The notes beneath the pieces are model-generated. The model was not told where the DNA came from, did no database searches, and saw only the letters and a list, made by a program, of their open reading frames with translations. Both the position numbers and the translations under genes were made by a program. From Candidatus Komeilibacteria bacterium S5_K13 (lineage in GTDB: Bacteria > Patescibacteriota > Patescibacteriia > UBA1558 > S5-K13), in contig JAEHGL010000001.1 of the NCBI GenBank assembly GCA_019248485.1, positions 11,446 through 75,445 on the forward strand: DNA of 64,000 nt, read 5' to 3'. Shown here piece by piece: positions 1,556-61,292 of the stretch. Within the stretch, counting starts at the first letter, position 1. Each line of letters starts with the position of its first letter.

Positions 1556-1638
1556 GGACTAGCTTTTAGTTATTAGAATTTAATATTTAGTTAAATCATA
1601 GTGACTAAATCTTAAATTCTAAACTCTAAACTCTATTT

Positions 1639-9039: not shown

Positions 9040-9125
9040 CCTCCTTCATTTGGACATTTCTCGCCTCGCTGAAGCTACCTGCCTCGACTTGTGTCTATGG
9101 CAAGGCGGGTGGCGAAGCGGGGAAA
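9040..9125 (+). repeat. GC-rich repeat element, copy 1 (~60-85 nt). Core sequence is ...TCGCCTCGCTGAAGCTACCTGCCTCGACTTGTGTCTATGGCAAGGCGGGTGGCGAAGCGGGG.
   Basis: The same sequence recurs at 38335-38415 and 61175-61292 in the same orientation. A diverged partial copy lies inside the CDS at 40003-40044. It is GC-rich in an AT-rich genome and contains internal inverted repeats. Confidence 0.8.
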
Positions 9126-11899: not shown

Positions 11900-13380
11900 C
11901 TGACATCACCTCAGAGGTGCATCACCTCAGAGGTGTTTAGCTGTGGATAACTACTATTGACAATAACTCTATGACATGCTATGTTACTTTATTGTACATT
12001 AACAATTCACTTCAAATTAACAGCAAGAAAAATGTAGAAGACTCTTTAAGAGGAGCTAATCTTTGGCGCCTTGAAAATAAACAAATTGCCATTTTAGCCA
12101 CTCTTCTACAGCTTTCTTGCTGTTAAAAAGGCTCCCTCTGTCAGAGATATTAGTTGACTAAGGAGCCATGATAAAGATGCCGCTTCCCTTAATTCTTTAT
12201 CCGAAATCAACAGAATTCAATTATTAAATAGGTGTTGATTGGTAGATAGAGGATGTTTCCCAACAATGGAGGTAACATGAGTATTCGGGGACAGCCCTAG
12301 ATTCCAAAATAAAAACAATCCCCCGAGACTTGGGGGAAATTCCGAATAGAAAAATTTTTTTGACAAAAGACATCCCTTGCTCCATTCTCCCCTAAAAGCA
12401 CATTACTACACATTAGAGGGATTTTACGGAAGCATGGGTAATATCTTTTGTCACCCGTCTTGTGGTCTTCGCGTCTGTTCAATGCTCTCGAGTTTTTAGC
12501 AAAGATCATTAGACACCCCTGGTGCCCCCATACGCACAGTAAGCGCACTCCCAACAATTGTTGGGAGTGAAAAAAGCGCTACGATATGTGCTGCTGGTTC
12601 TTTGAACCTGCCCTATAGCACTCAGAAATAGCGATGGGGGCTCACCAGAAAAACACCAAAGGCAACCTAGCAATTTTCCGGCTAATCCATGGTAACTCCG
12701 TTTTTTTTAGCGGTAATATCCATAGACAAAACCGGCCTAGGATGCCCGAGTGTGCGGACCAAAAGACTGTTAAGGGTTTACCTAAGGGCGCCCTTTCGCA
12801 CCTAGCTTGGTGCGAGCACAGTTTTGGCCACACGCGGCGACCCATGTCCCTGGCGCCTTCGCTCAATTGCTCATCGGGCTAAAACCTCCGATAAGAGCTA
12901 GAGAATCGTATTGCGAAGGCGCCTAATTCAATCAGTTCACATTGGTCCTTTATTGGATCAAACGGACCAAGGCCTAAAAAGCCCCGGCCTGTGCCAGCAG
13001 AAAGCTGACCAAGGCTCTCAAGTCCGAACCCAATGTGAACTCAAACCCCATTCTCTTTGGGGCTTGAATCGATAAGCGTAAAACAAATTACGCAAGTTGT
13101 TTACAAGCCCCCTTGAGATTTCAAGAAACAACCCCCGCAGTCTAATTGACTAGAGGGGTTAATGAAAGAAACATAAGTTTCTGAGAACCTCACGCCGAGG
13201 AATAATGCCTCTAGATAGAGTGTTCTCAGGGAAGACCGTCCAGAAGTCCTTCTGGACTCTAAACGACAACAAGCTTGACTGTAACCGAAAGGTACAGCCC
13301 GCCACGTCGTTAGACTCCTTAGGACTTCTGGAAAATTTTAACTAAGACCCGTAATACACTGTGGTCTTTTTTATTTGTCA
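11900..13380. ncRNA. Large GC-rich (~50% GC), hairpin-dense noncoding locus. Candidate structured RNA(s) of unknown family; strand unresolved.
   Basis: No credible ORF (the three track ORFs overlap each other on both strands). There are many perfect hairpins, for example CACTCCCAACAATTGTTGGGAGTG, GGCGCCTTCGC...GCGAAGGCGCC, and a long-range pair GTTCACATTGG/CCAATGTGAAC. A + strand promoter-like site sits at about 11957-11985 and a terminator at 13345-13377. Confidence 0.4.
13345..13377 (+). terminator. Hairpin AGACC-N13-GGTCT followed by a T-run.
   Basis: Stem-loop plus TTTTTTATTT at the 3' edge of the GC-rich locus. Confidence 0.45.
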
Positions 13381-13424
13381 GAAACCGACCCTGAGGGTCG
13401 ACCTAAAAATCTGCTCTTGACGAT

Positions 13425-17080: not shown

Positions 17081-17186
17081 GTTGGGTGGTTAGAAGGTTT
17101 CAGCCAGAGGCTGATCCGCCTTTGGCGGAAGATGGTTAGAGGGTTAGGTGGTTAGTAATCTATTCTAACCCTACTAACCTCACTAA
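17081..17186. repeat. GGTTAG/CTAACC hairpin element. The left arm is rich in GGTTAG, the right arm in CTAACC(C/T)TACTAACC.
   Basis: GGTTAGAGGGTTAGGTGGTTAG...TTCTAACCCTACTAACCTCACTAATC. Related copies lie at 30311-30378 and 30797-30866. Confidence 0.7.
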
Positions 17187-17195
17187 TCTACTGAC

Positions 17196-25715: not shown

Positions 25716-25779
25716 ACGTTTAGTTGTTAGTATTTAGATTTTAGTATTTAGCTAATTACTGAAAACTGAAAGCTGACAG

Positions 25780-28773: not shown

Positions 28774-28802
28774 GGGGCCTGACCCCAAAAGGGTCAGGCC
28801 CC
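28774..28802 (-). terminator. Perfect 12-bp GC hairpin (GGGGCCTGACCC/GGGTCAGGCCCC), followed on the minus strand by a U-run. This is the orphaned rplA terminator.
   Basis: Hairpin plus TTTGTTTTTGG on the minus strand. Lies just downstream of the duplicated rplA 3'-end copy. Confidence 0.55.
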
Positions 28803-30310: not shown

Positions 30311-30378
30311 TTAGTGGATTAGTTGATTAGATAATTAGAAATATATATCCCTAACCCTACTAACCTTACTAATCTAAA
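30311..30378. repeat. GGTTAG/CTAACC hairpin element, copy B.
   Basis: TTAGTGGATTAGTTGATTAG...CCCTAACCCTACTAACCTTACTAATC. Confidence 0.7.
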
Positions 30379-30788: not shown

Positions 30789-30796
30789 AAATTTTG

Positions 30797-30866
30797 TTGG
30801 TTAGGTGGTTAGTTGATTAGATGGTTAGCGACTTATTCTAACCTTACTAACCCTACTAATCCACTA
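30797..30866. repeat. GGTTAG/CTAACC hairpin element, copy C.
   Basis: GGTTAGGTGGTTAGTTGATTAGATGGTTAG...TTCTAACCTTACTAACCCTACTAATCC. Confidence 0.7.
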
Positions 30867-31295: not shown

Positions 31296-31431
31296 ATAAT
31301 TATTAGAATTTAGTATTTAGAATTTAGTTTTTAGAGGAACTAATAAACCACACAATTATCAATATTTAAATTCATAATACTTACCTAAGAAGCCTACACC
31401 ACCAAAGCGGGAGTAGATAAGTAAAAAATTA

Positions 31432-38334: not shown

Positions 38335-38415
38335 CCGGTTGCTCGCCTCGCTATCGCTACCTGCCTCGACTTGCGTCTATGGCAAGGCGGGTGGCGAAGC
38401 GGGACTAACCGGATA
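38335..38415 (+). repeat. GC-rich repeat element, copy 2.
   Basis: CCGGTTGCTCGCCTCGCTATCGCTACCTGCCTCGACTTGCGTCTATGGCAAGGCGGGTGGCGAAGCGGG. Confidence 0.8.
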
Positions 38416-46889: not shown

Positions 46890-48686
46890 ATGGAAATAAG
46901 AAATATAGCCATTATTGCTCATGTTGACCATGGCAAAACTACCATTACAGACGCTCTAATGAAGCAAACTGGTATGTCTACTGGTGAGACAAGTATGGAC
47001 AGCAATGACTTAGAGAAAGAAAGGGGTATTACAATATACTCAAAAAATACTTCGATTTACTACAAAGACACAAAAATAAATATTGTTGACACTCCTGGTC
47101 ATGCTGACTTTGGCTCTGAAGTAGAGAGAGTTCTTCGCTCCATAGACTCTGTTGTTCTTGTTGTCGATGCACAAGAGGGGCCAATGCCTCAGACAAAATT
47201 CGTATTAAAAAAATCACTAGACTTAGGACTAAAACCCATTGTTGTAATAAACAAAATTGACAAACCAGCAGCAAGTCCGAGCGATGTTAAAGAAATGGTA
47301 TATGAATTATTTCTAGATCTTGGCGCTGATGATGATCAGCTAGATTTTACTGCGATTTATGCTATAGCGCGCGACGGTGTTGCAAAAAAACATTTACACG
47401 AAGAAGCGCGAGATTTTTCTCCACTTTTAGATATCATCTTAGAAAAAGTTCCTGTCGCTTCCAGTCCTGAGCTTACAAACAAAGAGCTTCTTGTTCAACC
47501 ATTTAATCTAGGCTATGATAATTTCCTAGGACGCTTAGCAATATGTCGTATATATGAAGGAACAATAAATCAAGCCCAAACACTAGTTATCAAAAACTCA
47601 GAAGGAATTGCAAGGCGTGGAAAAATTACAAAATTATTTACCTTTGAAGGACTTATAAAAAAAGAAATTGAAAATGCTTCGGCGGGAGATATTGTAATGA
47701 TCGCAGGGCTTCCTGATATCTACATAGGCGAGACAATTTGTGAAAATGAAAATCAAAAATCGCTTCCAGCGATAAGTATTGATGAGCCTACAATTTGTCT
47801 AAACTTTTTAATAAACAATTCTCCGTTTGCAGGACGTGAAGGAAAATTTGTTACAAACAGACAACTCAAAGAAAGACTTGAAAAAGAATTAGAAATAAAC
47901 GTCGGGCTAAAAATTGATTTCTCATCCACTGAATCTTACAAAGTATTTGGCCGTGGTGAAATGCACATTGCGATTCTTTTAGAAAATTTAAGAAGGGAGG
48001 GCTACGAGCTTCAAGTTTCTCAACCCCATGTAATCATCAAAGAGATTGATGGTGAAAAACACGAACCATACGAAGAAGTTATTATTAATGTACCTCAAGA
48101 AATGAGCGGGGTTATTATCCAAAAGCTTTCAAAACGTCGTGGAACAATGATAGAAATGGAGCCAGAGCATGGAAATCTTAGAATGGTTTTTGAAGTTCCT
48201 ACTCGTGGACTTCTGGGCTACAAAAATGAGTTTGTTGTTGATACAAGGGGTGAGGGAATACTATATTCACGCGTAACGGGTTTTAAGCCATATGCTGGAA
48301 AAATAGACAAGACAGAGCTAGGATCAATGATTTCAATGGCAACTGGAAAAGCGCTTGGATTTTCACTTTATAATATACAGGAGCGTGGGACTCTTTATAT
48401 CAAGGCAAATACAGAAGTTTATGAAGGAATGGTTGTTGGAAATGTTGCAAAGGGAAATGATATGGTTGTAAATGTTATAAAAGGAAAACAGCTTACAAAT
48501 ATGAGATCTTCAAACGCTGATGAAGCAATAAAACTTACTACTCCTCTTGAGATAACTCTAGAGCGTGGAATGAGCATAATGAATGATGATGAATATCTTG
48601 AAATTACACCTCACAATATTAGGCTTAGAAAACAATATCTTACTGAAATTGAACGTACTAGATTTGGAAGAAAAAAAGAAAAATAA
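46890..48686 (+). CDS. typA: Translational GTPase TypA/BipA.
   Basis: IRNIAIIAHVDHGKTT G1, DTPGHADF G3 and NKIDK G4 motifs, plus the BipA C-terminal domain. Confidence 0.9.
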   Translation: MEIRNIAIIAHVDHGKTTITDALMKQTGMSTGETSMDSNDLEKERGITIYSKNTSIYYKDTKINIVDTPGHADFGSEVERVLRSIDSVVLVVDAQEGPMPQTKFVLKKSLDLGLKPIVVINKIDKPAASPSDVKEMVYELFLDLGADDDQLDFTAIYAIARDGVAKKHLHEEARDFSPLLDIILEKVPVASSPELTNKELLVQPFNLGYDNFLGRLAICRIYEGTINQAQTLVIKNSEGIARRGKITKLFTFEGLIKKEIENASAGDIVMIAGLPDIYIGETICENENQKSLPAISIDEPTICLNFLINNSPFAGREGKFVTNRQLKERLEKELEINVGLKIDFSSTESYKVFGRGEMHIAILLENLRREGYELQVSQPHVIIKEIDGEKHEPYEEVIINVPQEMSGVIIQKLSKRRGTMIEMEPEHGNLRMVFEVPTRGLLGYKNEFVVDTRGEGILYSRVTGFKPYAGKIDKTELGSMISMATGKALGFSLYNIQERGTLYIKANTEVYEGMVVGNVAKGNDMVVNVIKGKQLTNMRSSNADEAIKLTTPLEITLERGMSIMNDDEYLEITPHNIRLRKQYLTEIERTRFGRKKEK

Positions 48687-49269
48687 ATATAGAGTTAAAT
48701 CAACAAGACTAAGTTACTGGGATTATTCTAATCCTGGTTTTTATTTTGTCACAATATGTACTAAAGATAGAAAAAATATGTTTGGTGAAGTTAAAGATGA
48801 AAAGATGATTTTAAATAGATTAGGATATATTGTAAAACATTGTTGGCGTGATTTAACAAATCATTATAAAAATTGTAATTTAGATTCGTTCATTGTAATG
48901 CCGAATCATTTACATGGAATTATTAAAATAAAAAATTTCAATTCTAATGAACCCGTAGAGATGGGTTTACAACCTAGTGTAGCGATTCGCATCGCACCCG
49001 TAGAGATGATTCATGAATCATCTCTACGCGAATCGCCAAACAATAATTACAAAATAGAAAGGCGTAAAATGTTGTTATCAAAAATTGTCGGTAGATTTAA
49101 AATGCAATCATCTAAAAAAATAAATCTAGTAAATCGTGCAATACATTTTCATTGGCAACTAGGATTTTATGATCACATAATACGTATAGAATTTGATTTA
49201 TGGAAATCTAGAAAATACATAATAGATAATCCAGCAAATTGGAAAAAAGATAATAATTATAGAAAATAA
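48583..49269 (+). mobile_element. REP-associated tyrosine transposase (RAYT, IS200-like Y1 HuH). The N-terminal 27 codons overlap typA and are probably not translated; the likely start is the TTG at 48664.
   Basis: YWDYSNPGFYFVTICTKDRKNMFGEV..., HuH motif MPNHLHGII, and C-terminal WQLGFYDHIIRIEFDLWKSRKYIIDNP. An internal GC-rich palindrome TAGAGATGATTCATGAATCATCTCTA lies between the HuH and Tyr regions. Confidence 0.7.
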
Positions 49270-58946: not shown

Positions 58947-58995
58947 CGTTTTTTAAAACAAAAAGACGTCTTGATATAAAACGTCTCTTATGCTC
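58947..58995. repeat. 49-bp direct repeat A (Bro-N gene 3' end plus terminator hairpin AGACGT...ACGTCT). Its mate lies at 61120-61168, with one mismatch.
   Basis: AAAACAAAAAGACGTCTTGATATAAAACGTCTCTTATGCTCTAATATGT. Confidence 0.8.
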
Positions 58996-59866
58996 TAATA
59001 TGTGATTCATTACTATTTTGAAAAACCTTTTTTAACTTTTTTTGCTTTGATAATCTTTTAAAATTGTTTTTACTCACTATCGGCTTACCAGTTTTTTGTT
59101 CCAATTCTAAACGAGCATTTTTCGCAACATGTCCACCTTTTTTTGCGGGAATTTTATTATCTTCTACTCCTTTTGTTTCCATTGTTTCTGCAATTTGGCG
59201 TGTAGAAAGTTCTGCTAAAGCTGTAAAAACTAGCTCGGCATCTGTCATGTGATCTCGTAAATTTTCTTGACGCAAATCTTTTAAGCTCTTGTGTTCTTTT
59301 ATTGTAAGATCACTCCATTCTTTATGAATAATATTTGTCAAAATAGCATACTCCTCTTTTTTTCTTACTTCATTATCCTTCCAATAATCAGTCAATTTAT
59401 TGCGAATTTCTTGTCCCATCATTCTCTGTTGTATCCATTTTTTATCTCGTCCCATTTTCTGCCAATATTCACAACTTCTATCTAAAGCTCTTTCTGGATC
59501 ATTCATTTCTTGCACTCTTTCATAACCAACTTTTGCTAACCATAATTTAATAGGTTCAGCCTTTTTGCTTGGAATAGATTGAATAAGGCGCAAAATTGTT
59601 TCTACGTCAGCAACATCTGTTTTATAAAATTTACCATCTGCGGACAAAAGTTTCAGTTTGTCACATTTTGTGACAGACTCATTTCCCTCTCTTTTTAAAC
59701 GATTTTTAAGAGTTGCCCAATAACTTTGTGCTTTTTTGAAATCTATTTGCTCAATTAAAATAGCAACGATATCAATTACTGAAAAATACCATGTCTCAGT
59801 CTTTTCATCATAATATCGACGAATTTTGTGAGTTTTAAAAATAGCAATGTTTTTATTTTTTTTCAT
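58988..59866 (-). CDS. Bro-N domain protein with a DinD-like (DNA-damage-inducible protein D) C-terminal region.
   Basis: The N-terminal IAIFKTHKIRRYYDEKTETWYFSVIDIVAIL resembles Bro-N. The C-terminal FTALAELSTRQIAE...KKGGHVAKNARLELEQKTGKPIVS is DinD-like. Confidence 0.55.
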   Translation of the reverse strand: MKKNKNIAIFKTHKIRRYYDEKTETWYFSVIDIVAILIEQIDFKKAQSYWATLKNRLKREGNESVTKCDKLKLLSADGKFYKTDVADVETILRLIQSIPSKKAEPIKLWLAKVGYERVQEMNDPERALDRSCEYWQKMGRDKKWIQQRMMGQEIRNKLTDYWKDNEVRKKEEYAILTNIIHKEWSDLTIKEHKSLKDLRQENLRDHMTDAELVFTALAELSTRQIAETMETKGVEDNKIPAKKGGHVAKNARLELEQKTGKPIVSKNNFKRLSKQKKLKKVFQNSNESHIRA

Positions 59867-61119: not shown

Positions 61120-61168
61120 AAAACAAAAAGACGTCTTGAAATAAAACGTCTCTTATGCTCTAATATGT
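61120..61168. repeat. 49-bp direct repeat B (orphan copy of the Bro-N gene end and terminator).
   Basis: AAAACAAAAAGACGTCTTGAAATAAAACGTCTCTTATGCTCTAATATGT. Confidence 0.8.
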
Positions 61169-61174
61169 TATTTT

Positions 61175-61292
61175 CGACGCAACCCCGTCTTCGCTCGCCT
61201 CGCATTCGCTACCTGCCTCGACTTGTGTCTATGGCAAGGCGGGTGGCGAAGCGGGCCTACGGCTACGCCGAGGCAGGTCGGTTGCTCGAAAC
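61175..61292 (+). repeat. GC-rich repeat element, copy 3 (the longest). It has an additional right arm containing CGAGGCAGGT, which is complementary to ACCTGCCTCG.
   Basis: ...CGCCTCGCATTCGCTACCTGCCTCGACTTGTGTCTATGGCAAGGCGGGTGGCGAAGCGGGCCTACGGCTACGCCGAGGCAGGTCGGTTGCTCG. Confidence 0.8.

What the first reader, a model, noticed from the sequence alone, without database searches (positions are those of the whole stretch)
48583..49269. Single RAYT (IS200-like HuH-Y1 transposase) gene directly downstream of typA, with an internal palindromic GC insert
The protein has the Y1 HuH signature (YFVT..., PNHLHGII, WQLGFYDHII...YIIDNP) typical of REP-associated tyrosine transposases rather than a full IS200/IS605 element. 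There is no tnpB and no flanking hairpin ends. Between the HuH motif and the catalytic-Tyr helix there is a GC-rich stretch with two CCCGTAGAGATG repeats and a perfect 26-nt palindrome TAGAGATGATTCATGAATCATCTCTA, in frame. The annotated ATG start overlaps typA by 104 nt; a TTG at 48664 is more plausible. RAYTs have rarely been discussed for CPR genomes, and this gene may be linked to the GC-rich repeat family above.
Basis: partly seen in the sequence, partly recalled or inferred. Interest (0 to 1): 0.6.

Follow-up and report, generated by a model that had tools for sequence, protein, structure and literature searches.

The report
RAYT gene carrying its own REP
This is a REP-associated tyrosine transposase (RAYT) gene of an already described subclass that carries copies of its own palindromic target repeat in frame inside the coding sequence; this copy has also lost its promoter and start codon to a small deletion, so it is an ordinary, partly decayed member of a known family.

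Summary
ORF 48583-49269 encodes a HuH/Y1 protein. Its linker holds a perfect 30-nt palindrome (48999-49028), a 13-nt direct repeat, and outer complementary arms.

The insert is a hallmark of a known family. Quentin et al. 2018 (PMC6006769) described TnpA_REP subclass 2.4 (Bertels group 4), which has "double-foot" REPs (GTAG...CTAC) inserted in frame between the HuH and Tyr motifs. Of 78 homologues from many phyla, 47 carry such a hairpin there, often matching REPs that flank the gene.

Points specific to this locus:
- **Not single copy.** The same assembly holds two paralogues elsewhere.
- **5'-truncated.** A related genome keeps typA, a terminator, a promoter and the ATG. In the window a 132-nt microhomology deletion fused the gene to typA.
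- **REP confined to the genes.** In 213 kb sampled from five related genomes, this REP occurs only inside RAYT genes.
- **Hairpin conservation.** The inner palindrome is more conserved than the rest of the gene. Five stem pairs show compensatory changes.
- **No link to the GC-rich repeats.** I found none.

Verdict: a new member of a known kind, of modest interest.

The parts
46890..48686 (+). typA/bipA gene (context). Its conserved BipA_C domain ends at residue 585 (nt 48644). Its last codons and its stop (TAA, 48684-48686) lie at the deletion junction with the RAYT gene.
   Evidence: ORF list; Pfam domains; synteny and 3'-end comparison with L120 and L122.
48664..49269 (+). RAYT / TnpA_REP coding sequence, subclass 2.4-like. 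It is read here from the surrogate TTG at 48664 (201 aa). Alternative starts are TTG 48649, which is the database call of 206 aa, and ATG 48583, the longest ORF. The native ATG is missing.
   Evidence: Paralogue alignment A3 and orthologous locus L120 show that homology to intact copies begins only at about 48679.
48679..48690 (+). Deletion junction AAAAATAAATAT. The same microhomology occurs at the typA 3' end and at codons 8-11 of intact RAYT copies. 132 nt are missing here: the typA terminator hairpin, a TTGACA-17-TATAAT promoter, the ATG and MKNKALF.
   Evidence: Alignment A4 of the window against L120; ORFs of L120; paralogue upstream regions.
48907..48915 (+). HuH motif codons (H82-L-H84 in the 201-aa numbering; NHLH).
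   Evidence: Translation. H82 and H84 are invariant in alignment A1.
48955..48974 (+). Truncated 5' half of a second REP variant (GTAGAGATGGGTTTACAACC). It is complete in relatives such as L084 (GAGATGGGTT-TACA-ACCCATCTC). Its foot forms the first copy of the ACCCGTAGAGATG direct repeat. It encodes VEMGLQP.
48979..48990 (+). 5' arm of the outer stem (GTAGCGATTCGC). It pairs with 49029-49040 and looks like the left half of an older double-foot REP that was split by a 39-nt in-frame insertion.
   Evidence: Inverted repeat I3; DNA fold; covariation of this stem among six related genes.
49000..49027 (+). Inner double-foot REP GTAGAGATGATTCATGAATCATCTCTAC. The perfect palindrome is 30 nt if the flanking C and G at 48999 and 49028 are included. 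It is read in frame as VEMIHESSL.
   Evidence: The same 28-mer lies in 31 metagenome contigs, 28 of them outside RAYT-like ORFs. It is 26-28/28 identical among clade genes whose remaining CDS is 74-90% identical.
49029..49040 (+). 3' arm of the outer stem (CGAATCGCCAAA). Its foot is degenerate here (CCAA instead of CTAC).
49153..49185 (+). WQLGFYDHIIR segment. It is equivalent to the W94, Q95, E100, H101 and R104 residues of E. coli TnpA_REP that contact the GTAG guide. W, Q, D (in place of E), H and R are present.
   Evidence: Profile alignment to 4ER8; residue roles from PMC6006769 section 14.
49216..49233 (+). Catalytic Tyr motif YIIDNP (Y185 ... N189-P190), matching the class 2 signature Y---NP.
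   Evidence: Translation; Y185 and N189 are invariant in A1; Table 1 of PMC6006769.

Best explanation
The gene is a REP-associated tyrosine transposase (RAYT, TnpA_REP). It fits the subclass that Quentin et al. 2018.4, which corresponds to Bertels group 4.

Shown here:
- The protein has the HuH/Y1 fold, with H82 and H84, the Y185---N189-P motif, and the W-Q...D-H..R residues that read the GTAG guide in E. coli TnpA_REP.
- The loop between strand beta3 and helix alphaC is encoded by REP DNA. It contains a truncated REP variant followed by a complete 28-nt 'double-foot' REP (5' GTAG ... CTAC 3'). That REP is nested inside the two halves of an older REP-like palindrome, and all of it is in frame. 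The loop is predicted to be disordered.
- The same arrangement is common across many phyla. The internal palindrome covaries between lineages, and in some loci it is identical or nearly identical to REPs flanking the gene.
- The window copy is one of three paralogues in its genome. It is the positional orthologue of a copy that, in a related genome, has its own promoter and ATG downstream of the typA terminator. A 132-nt deletion between AAATAAA(A/T)AT microhomologies removed these elements in the window.

Inferred from the E. coli TnpA_REP and IS200/IS605 literature:
- The enzyme would bind the folded REP hairpin in single-stranded DNA and read GTAG.
- It would cleave and rejoin through a 5'-phosphotyrosine on Y185, with Mg2+ held by H82, H84 and N189.
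- REPs land in the enzyme's own gene and persist only where they are tolerated. That means the disordered loop, a length that is a multiple of three, and one of the two frames in which GTAG does not create a TAG stop.
- If the window copy is expressed at all, it must rely on typA read-through transcription and a surrogate start such as TTG 48664 or 48649.
For: Family assignment:
- NCBIfam REP_Tyr_transpos is the only NCBIfam hit, at 57 bits in two stretches split by the insert.
- The A1 profile hits only 4ER8 in the PDB, E = 2e-6.
- The AF2 model has core blocks averaging pLDDT 85-98, while residues 101-124 are below 50. Its top Foldseek hit is 4ER8.
- Many homologues are named 'REP element-mobilizing transposase RayT' by their sources.

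Published description:
- PMC6006769 gives the subclass motifs NH[IFV]H, WQ and YIxNNP, a median length of 194 aa, and a variable beta3:alphaC insertion.
- It also describes 'double foot' REPs, and REPs inserted in frame within tnpAREP between HuH and Y.

Reproduced here:
- 47 of 78 homologous genes have a linker hairpin scoring at least 9.7. Codon-shuffled linkers average 3-6.
- 31 genes have strict GT[AG]G-footed palindromes. These sit in frame 0 (21 genes) or frame 1 (10 genes), and never in the TAG-stop frame.
- The same or nearly the same palindromes flank the gene in L040, L076, L031, L035, L050, L047 and others.
- The window's exact 28-mer is a dispersed repeat in 28 of 31 metagenome contigs.

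Locus history:
- Paralogues P0002 and P0003 are in the same assembly.
- The intact-site comparison with L120 shows what was deleted.
- dN/dS between the paralogues is 0.22-0.5.
Against: - Pfam Y1_Tnp (21 bits against a cutoff of 23) and NCBIfam (57 against 80) are both below their curated cutoffs. The family assignment therefore rests on profile and fold evidence.
- The HuH motif is NHLH and the Tyr motif is YIIDNP. These are one residue away from the published consensus NH[IFV]H and YIxNNP.
- The defining REPtron arrangement (REPs flanking the gene) is absent in the window and in all seven related loci examined.
- No extragenic copy of the REP was seen in 213 kb of related genomes, so there is no evidence that this enzyme currently mobilises anything.
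- No expression or activity data exist, and the copy lacks its native start.
Confidence: 0.82

Rival explanations
1. The internal REP is a functional cis element kept by selection, not a tolerated passenger. It could be the enzyme's own recognition hairpin placed in its gene for autoregulation or self-processing, or a protected master copy of the REP.
For: - Among six related genes from four genomes the inner 28-mer is 26-28/28 identical, while the rest of the CDS is 74-90% identical.
- The two paralogue states (ATG...CAT and ACG...CGT) differ by a compensatory pair.
- On the 23-pair bipartite hairpin, 99.3% of cells pair and 5 pairs changed on both sides. There are no one-sided or G-T states, and slid controls give 20-39% pairing.
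- All 8 double-foot REPs in 213 kb of five related genomes lie inside RAYT genes.
- Orthologues keep the REP at syntenic loci next to ruvC and uvrC.
Against: - The encoded loop is disordered and varies greatly in length and copy number across the family.
- The frameshifted copy in L120 still has a perfect palindrome.
- Perfect palindromes can be kept symmetric without selection, for example by arm-to-arm correction in hairpin or cruciform form or by re-insertion from a REP pool.
- The covariation rests on only six related sequences, and only part of each genome was sampled.
Confidence: 0.28
2. The window copy is a non-functional remnant. After losing its promoter, ATG and first seven codons it is no longer expressed, and the open frame simply has not yet decayed.
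For: - The 132-nt deletion relative to L120 and to both paralogues removed the promoter, ATG and MKNKALF.
- There is no promoter-like site on the + strand between 48332 and 48908.
- I saw no obvious Shine-Dalgarno-like sequence before TTG 48649 or 48664 when reading the sequence. This was read by eye, not tested.
- A terminator-like hairpin followed by a T run at 48716-48748 lies just after the typA stop.
- The positional orthologue in L120 is itself split by a frameshift.
Against: - The ORF is intact for 201-228 codons and keeps every catalytic and GTAG-reading residue.
- The frame stays open back into typA, with ATG and TTG candidates that would allow translational coupling.
- dN/dS against the paralogues is below 1, although that mostly reflects history before the deletion.
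Confidence: 0.4
3. It is an ordinary IS200/IS605 TnpA (subclass 1.1) that has lost its partner elements.
For: Weak Pfam Y1_Tnp match. IS200/IS605 transposases are the next-best structural matches after 4ER8.
Against: - The Tyr motif is Y---NP, not Y---Q.
- There is no tnpB and there are no subterminal hairpins at the ends of paralogue homology.
- Length is about 200 aa rather than about 150 aa.
- The best sequence-profile and fold matches are to TnpA_REP.
- The paralogues are diverged (80-86% aa identity) rather than near-identical, which is the pattern reported for IS copies.
Confidence: 0.03
4. The RAYT mobilises the GC-rich 67-nt repeat family of the window (9059-9125, 38341-38407, 61193-61259).
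For: Both are hairpin-forming, relatively GC-rich sequences in an AT-rich genome. The three GC-rich copies are intergenic, as REPs are.
Against: - The two sequences share no similarity, and the GC-rich hairpin has no GTAG at its foot.
- Its fold is only marginally better than shuffles, z = -1.7 to -2.8.
- It is absent from all 85 loci held at that point, including the two paralogue loci of the same genome.
- The enzyme family's cognate REP type is evidently the GTAG...CTAC palindrome.
Confidence: 0.05
5. The palindrome acts at the RNA level, as a translational or mRNA-stability hairpin inside the coding sequence.
For: It is a very stable hairpin on either strand. REPs are known to affect mRNA stability and translation in E. 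coli (background cited in PMC3733652).
Against: All stem variation is Watson-Crick to Watson-Crick, with no G-U states. No T run follows the hairpin. Identical sequences occur as dispersed DNA repeats outside genes in other organisms.
Confidence: 0.1

Closest known systems
TnpA_REP subclass 2.4 of the TnpA_Y1 family (Quentin, Siguier, Chandler & Fichant 2018, BMC Genomics 19:475), corresponding to RAYT group 4 of Bertels et al. 2017
   Same: - About 200 aa, with an NHxH HuH motif, WQ and a Y---NP Tyr motif.
- A variable-length insertion between beta3 and alphaC, made of in-frame REP DNA.
- A 'double-foot' REP with 5' GTAG and 3' CTAC.
- A patchy distribution over many phyla and low copy number.
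   Different: - No REPs flank the gene, in the window or in seven related loci.
- No extragenic REP copies in the sampled 213 kb.
- HuH is NHLH and the Tyr motif is YIIDNP, each one residue off the consensus.
- The host is a low-GC, probably CPR-type genome that was not in the 2018 sampling.
- This copy is 5'-truncated and fused to typA.
E. coli TnpA_REP (RAYT group 2 / subclass 2.2; PDB 4ER8)
   Same: - Same HuH/Y1 fold: it is the top Foldseek hit and the only profile hit in the PDB.
- The residues that read the GTAG guide (W, Q, E/D, H, R) are conserved.
- The cognate substrate is a GTAG-footed hairpin.
   Different: - Only about 16% sequence identity.
- The E. coli enzyme has DHLH and YIHYNP motifs and no REP inside its gene.
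- Its REPs are imperfect, bulged hairpins with a single foot, present in hundreds of extragenic copies.
IS200/IS605 TnpA (subclass 1.1)
   Same: HuH/Y1 catalytic core and recognition of DNA hairpins in single-stranded DNA.
   Different: The IS enzymes have a Y---Q motif, are about 150 aa long, are flanked by subterminal hairpins, are often next to tnpB, and occur as multiple near-identical copies. None of these is seen here.
Intragenic GTAG REPs in unrelated genes (Di Nocera et al. 2013, BMC Genomics 14:522)
   Same: A REP lies entirely within an ORF, in frame, and adds a short peptide.
   Different: In that study the host genes are unrelated to the transposase and the insertion sites differ between genes. 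Here the host is the REP's own transposase gene and the site (the HuH-Tyr linker) recurs across the family.

Membership tests
RAYT / TnpA_REP (class 2 of TnpA_Y1) | HuH motif and catalytic Tyr in the context Y---NP | tested here: met
   NHLH at residues 81-84 and YIIDNP at 185-190. H82, H84, Y185 and N189 are invariant in the 30-sequence alignment A1. Class signature from PMC6006769.
RAYT / TnpA_REP (class 2 of TnpA_Y1) | HuH/Y1 fold closest to TnpA_REP | tested here: met
   AF2 core blocks average pLDDT 85-98. The top Foldseek PDB hit is 4ER8, E = 3e-5, followed by IS200/IS605 TnpAs. The A1 profile hits only 4ER8, E = 2e-6.
RAYT / TnpA_REP (class 2 of TnpA_Y1) | Residues that read the GTAG guide (W94, Q95, E100, H101, R104 of E. 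coli) | tested here: met
   The WQLGFYDHIIR segment aligns with IWQPRFWEHAIR of 4ER8. W, Q, D (for E), H and R are present (roles).
RAYT / TnpA_REP (class 2 of TnpA_Y1) | Gene flanked by GTAG-footed REPs (REPtron arrangement) | tested here: not met
   No GTAG-footed palindrome lies outside the CDS in the 64-kb window or in related loci. Wider-family homologues do have them: 21 of 78 within 1 kb.
RAYT / TnpA_REP (class 2 of TnpA_Y1) | Curated HMM thresholds (NCBIfam NF047646; Pfam PF01797) | tested here: not met
   57.2 bits against a cutoff of 80, and 21.2 bits against 23. Both matches are split or truncated by the REP-encoded insert.
RAYT / TnpA_REP (class 2 of TnpA_Y1) | ssDNA REP binding and cleavage activity | not testable with these tools
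   Requires biochemistry.
TnpA_REP subclass 2.4 (Bertels group 4) | Key motifs NH[IFV]H / WQ / YIxNNP and a length of about 194 aa | tested here: inconclusive
   The window has NHLH / WQ / YIIDNP at 201-206 aa. The paralogues have NHFH. The A1 consensus is MPNHxHGI ... WQ ... YIxNNP. No phylogeny with the reference set was possible.
TnpA_REP subclass 2.4 (Bertels group 4) | Variable-length insertion between beta3 and alphaC | tested here: met
   The linker from HuH to WQ is 44-105 aa among homologues and 79 aa here. In the model no secondary structure is assigned between strand 82-89 and helix 138-156.
TnpA_REP subclass 2.4 (Bertels group 4) | REP inserted in frame within the gene, of the 'double-foot' type (5' GT[AG]G ... 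C[TC]AC 3') | tested here: met
   GTAGAGATGATTCATGAATCATCTCTAC at 49000-49027, in frame. The published feature is quoted.
TnpA_REP subclass 2.4 (Bertels group 4) | 8-aa insertion at the end of helix alphaB | not tested
   This would need a structure-based alignment with the other subclasses.
IS200/IS605 TnpA (subclass 1.1) | Y---Q motif, about 150 aa, subterminal hairpins, frequent tnpB neighbour, near-identical multiple copies | tested here: not met
   The motif is Y---NP and the length is about 200 aa. The neighbours are typA, a GT4 glycosyltransferase, and DEAD-box and PIF1 helicases. Paralogue homology ends at the stop codon with no hairpins. Paralogues are 80-86% identical at the protein level.

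The most novel reading that the evidence does not exclude
In this low-GC, probably CPR, clade the double-foot REP has no extragenic population and survives only inside RAYT genes. There it is held as a perfect bipartite DNA hairpin by compensatory changes and is more conserved than the catalytic core. On this reading the in-gene REP is a selected cis element rather than a tolerated passenger. It could be the enzyme's own recognition site used for self-regulation or self-processing, or a sheltered master copy from which REPs can be re-seeded. That would change the published view that these insertions have little impact on the protein.
Probability: 0.25. Interest if true: 0.6.

Novelty: new member of a known kind. 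Interest (0 to 1): 0.3.

Why it matters
As filed, this is an annotation point. Genes like this one fall below the Pfam and NCBIfam cutoffs because REP DNA splits the domain, so they go unnamed in CPR assemblies. None of the three paralogues carried a name or a precomputed Pfam domain.

The locus also gives a clean example of a microhomology deletion that fuses a domesticated transposase gene to a housekeeping gene.

The more interesting question is whether an in-gene REP is functional. If it is, the RAYT gene would be the minimal self-contained REP-RAYT unit, and small genomes such as this one, apparently lacking extragenic REPs, would be a good place to test what RAYTs do for their hosts. That question has been open since 2010.

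Tried and rejected
- Single-sequence phmmer against the PDB gave only chance hits. The profile search was needed.
- Rfam found only one tRNA at gathering thresholds in the whole window. It found nothing meaningful for the GC-rich repeat at E up to 1.
- The 12-mer and the 28-mer have no other convincing copy in the window.
- I considered that the GC-rich 67-nt repeats were the cognate REPs and rejected it.
- I considered an ordinary IS200/IS605 element and rejected it on motif, neighbours and ends.
- I considered that the peptide VEMIHESSL is conserved for protein reasons. I rejected this because distant homologues keep the palindrome while the peptide changes (VGAIHELPL, VETLHATSL, RDGACPVST and others) and because the region is predicted to be disordered.
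- I could not scan the rest of assembly GCA_019248045.1.
- The organism's taxonomy could not be confirmed. One close relative is labelled Patescibacteria and another is labelled Gammaproteobacteria in its record title.
Full report
**Observation**

- The 12-mer CCCGTAGAGATG occurs at 48952 and 48997.
- The 26-nt palindrome is the core of a perfect 30-nt palindrome at 48999-49028, bracketed by imperfect outer arms at 48977-48990 and 49028-49041.
- The 28-mer has no other copy in the window, and none appeared in 100 shuffles.
- The 101-nt stretch folds far better than shuffles, z = -7.
- It is GC-enriched only relative to a very AT-rich gene.
- The longest ORF overlaps typA (46890-48686) by 104 nt. 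In-frame TTGs lie at 48649 and 48664. The identical database protein P0001 (206 aa) uses 48649.

**What the protein is**

Pfam Y1_Tnp and NCBIfam REP_Tyr_transpos are the only family hits, and both fall below their curated cutoffs because the match is interrupted. Several other lines of evidence agree:
- A profile of 30 homologues hits only 4ER8, E. coli TnpA_REP bound to a REP hairpin, in the PDB.
- An AlphaFold model has a confident core and a disordered segment at about residues 95-135. Its best structural match is again 4ER8, followed by IS200/IS605 transposases.
- H82, H84, Y185 and N189 are invariant among homologues.
- The Tyr context is Y---NP, the class 2 (TnpA_REP) signature, not the Y---Q of IS200.
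- There is no tnpB. The neighbours are a DEAD-box helicase, typA, a GT4 glycosyltransferase and a PIF1 helicase.

**What the insert is**

In the protein alignment the HuH-Tyr linker is hypervariable, but its peptides (VEMIHESSL, VGAIHELPL, VETLHATSL, VETGHALSL, RDGACPVST and others) read like translated palindromes. I fetched 80 homologous loci from many phyla and tested this at the DNA level.
- 47 of 78 genes hold a hairpin scoring at least 9.7 in the linker. These are typically 28-30-nt perfect palindromes of the form GTAG[AG]G...C[CT]CTAC with lineage-specific centres. Codon-shuffled linkers average 3-6.
- By a stricter definition, 31 genes have a GT[AG]G-footed palindrome. Of these, 21 are read as GTA|G.. 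and 10 as xGT|AG.. None is in the frame that would create a TAG stop.
- In many loci the same or nearly the same palindrome also sits just upstream and/or downstream of the gene, for example in L040, L076, L031, L035, L050 and L047. This is the classical REP-RAYT arrangement with an extra copy inside the gene.
- The window's exact 28-mer (allowing the Y/R pair) occurs in 31 metagenome contigs. In 28 of them it lies outside any RAYT-like ORF. It is therefore a genuine dispersed REP in other organisms.

**This is already published**

Quentin, Siguier, Chandler and Fichant (2018; PMC6006769) define TnpA_Y1 subclass 2.4, which they equate with Bertels group 4.
- The motifs are NH[IFV]H, WQ and YIxNNP, the median length is 194 aa, and there is a variable beta3:alphaC insertion.
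- REPs in this subclass are either 'long' or 'double foot', meaning 5' GT[AG]G plus 3' C[TC]AC.
[quoted passage not shown] They interpret the region as a peripheral extension with little effect on activity.
- Bertels et al. (2017; PMC5581495) describe group 4 as scattered over 17 bacterial classes, with low-abundance associated 16-mers.
- Di Nocera et al. (2013; PMC3733652) describe GTAG REPs inside unrelated genes.

The window gene (NHLH, WQ, YIIDNP, 201-206 aa, internal double-foot REP) fits this description with one-residue deviations in two motifs.

**Anatomy of the window's linker**

Comparison with close relatives resolves three REP-derived pieces.
1. Positions 48955-48974 are the 5' half of a second REP variant. 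It is complete in L084, and its foot produces the first copy of the 'direct repeat'.
2. Positions 48979-48990 and 49029-49040 are the two arms of an older palindrome (GTAGCGATTCG|CGAATCGC...). This resembles the GTAGGGGCGATTCGCGAATCGCCCCTAC type seen in L035.
3. That older palindrome is split by a 39-nt in-frame insertion containing the perfect inner REP at 49000-49027.

**Genome context**

The window is contig JAEHHI010000005.1 of GCA_019248045.1.
- The same assembly carries two paralogues. P0002 (86% aa identity) lies next to ruvC-yebC, and P0003 (80%) lies upstream of dprA. 'Single RAYT' is therefore true only of the window.
- Orthologues sit at the same loci in other genomes. P0006 is at ruvC, and P0012, P0010 and P0005 are at uvrC. 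This is consistent with long vertical residence.
- dN/dS between the paralogues is 0.22-0.5.

**Why the start looks odd**

The paralogues share about 70 nt of promoter-like upstream sequence and begin MKNKALFKNKYR. Homology with the window starts only at about 48679.

A related genome (L120) has the same synteny of helicase, typA, RAYT and glycosyltransferase. There the typA stop is followed by a terminator hairpin, a TTGACA-17-TATAAT promoter and the ATG. In the window these 132 nt are missing. The junction falls in the 12-nt AAAAATAAATAT (48679-48690), which occurs, with one mismatch in L120, at both ends of the deleted segment. The simplest reading is therefore a microhomology-mediated deletion.

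The typA conserved domain ends at nt 48644 and is unaffected. No promoter-like site lies on the + strand between 48332 and 48908. Any expression must therefore come from typA read-through and a surrogate start, and TTG 48664 gives the N-terminal length closest to the intact copies.

The L120 orthologue carries a different central cassette and is split by a 1-nt frameshift. A third genome (L122) has no RAYT after typA.

**Beyond the published description**

- In 213 kb from five related genomes, all 8 double-foot REPs lie inside RAYT genes and none lies outside.
- Among six clade genes the inner 28-mer is 26-28/28 identical, while the rest of the CDS is 74-90% identical.
- The only inner-stem variation is a compensatory pair, and the 9-bp outer stem shows four more. 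On the 23-pair bipartite hairpin, 99.3% of cells pair. There are no one-sided or G-T states, and slid controls give 20-39% pairing.
- The 9-nt bulge between the two stems varies freely.
- This pattern is compatible with selection on a DNA hairpin. It is equally compatible with selection-free symmetrisation of palindromes or with re-insertion from a REP pool that I did not sample.
- The frameshifted L120 copy still has a perfect palindrome. This counts mildly against dependence on protein function.

**The GC-rich repeat family**

The three 67-nt copies (9059, 38341, 61193) are intergenic, lying between or next to ORFs on the minus strand.
- They share no sequence with the REP and have no GTAG at the foot of their hairpin.
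- They fold only marginally better than shuffles.
- They have no Rfam match.
- They are absent from the paralogue loci.

I found no link between them and the RAYT.

**Verdict**

The 'internal palindromic insert' is the known hallmark of TnpA_REP subclass 2.4, so this is a new, 5'-truncated member of a known kind. Interest is modest. The residual novelty lies in the possibility that the in-gene REP is a selected element in a clade that seems to lack extragenic REPs.

Noticed in passing
window 9059-9125, 38341-38407, 61193-61259 (and 58955-59007 / 61120-61172): A GC-rich 67-nt repeat family (88-94% identical) lies in short intergenic gaps, between or next to minus-strand ORFs. It folds as an imperfect hairpin, slightly better on the + strand, and has no Rfam match. 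A separate 53-nt repeat (96% identical) lies immediately upstream of the third copy, and occurs again at 58955 without an obvious GC-rich partner.
   Followed up: partly
window 48716-48748: A terminator-like hairpin followed by a T run (ACTGGGATTATTCTAATCCTGGT TTTTATTTTG) lies inside the RAYT 5' coding region, 30 nt after the typA stop. It is invariant in the three paralogues. It encodes the conserved WDYSNPGFYFV motif, so it may be a by-product of AT-biased codons, or it may be an attenuator.
   Followed up: partly
L120 5798-6460 (GCA_964640635.1, typA locus): The positional orthologue of the window's RAYT has similar 5' and 3' thirds but a different central cassette. That cassette covers the HuH region, a different REP read in the other frame, and a different alphaC, and it resembles P0015 of the same genome. 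This suggests cassette exchange between paralogues. The copy is also split by a 1-nt frameshift in an A run.
   Followed up: partly
L118 1750-1785 and L119 9917-9952: A 15-16-bp hairpin (TATATCC[TC]GTGAGAT...ATCTCAC[AG]GGATATA) lies about 50 nt upstream of the uvrC-locus RAYT orthologues. It shows one compensatory pair between the two genomes, has no GTAG foot, and is a possible operator or bidirectional terminator.
   Followed up: no
L088, L089, L097, L103, L107, L111, L113, L114 (metagenome contigs): Copies of the 28-nt REP, most of them outside RAYT ORFs, often sit at the exact centre of longer palindromes that are specific to each locus. 8 of 28 non-redundant copies extend by at least 5 bp and up to 17 bp, against about 0.1% expected by chance. 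Internal copies in L040, L045, L050 and L032 show the same. This suggests insertion into hairpin apices, or a larger mobile unit.
   Followed up: partly
window 12400-13400: This stretch has 45-54% GC in a 31% GC window. It includes a 24-nt perfect palindrome at 12546-12569. Its identity was not examined.
   Followed up: no
window 1559-1590, 17165-17190, 25720-25751, 30311-30376, 30793-30863, 31303-31334: Clusters of short TTAG-containing repeat units (for example TTAGTGGATTAGTTGATTAG) and their complement (CTAACCCTACTAACC) recur at several places.
   Followed up: no
window 28774-28802; L083 7956-7982: Isolated, very GC-rich perfect hairpins (GGGGCCTGACCCC-AAAAG-GGGTCAGGCCCC and GGGCCAGGACCC-TCT-GGGTCCTGGCCC) stand out in this AT-rich genome. 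They look like terminators.
   Followed up: no
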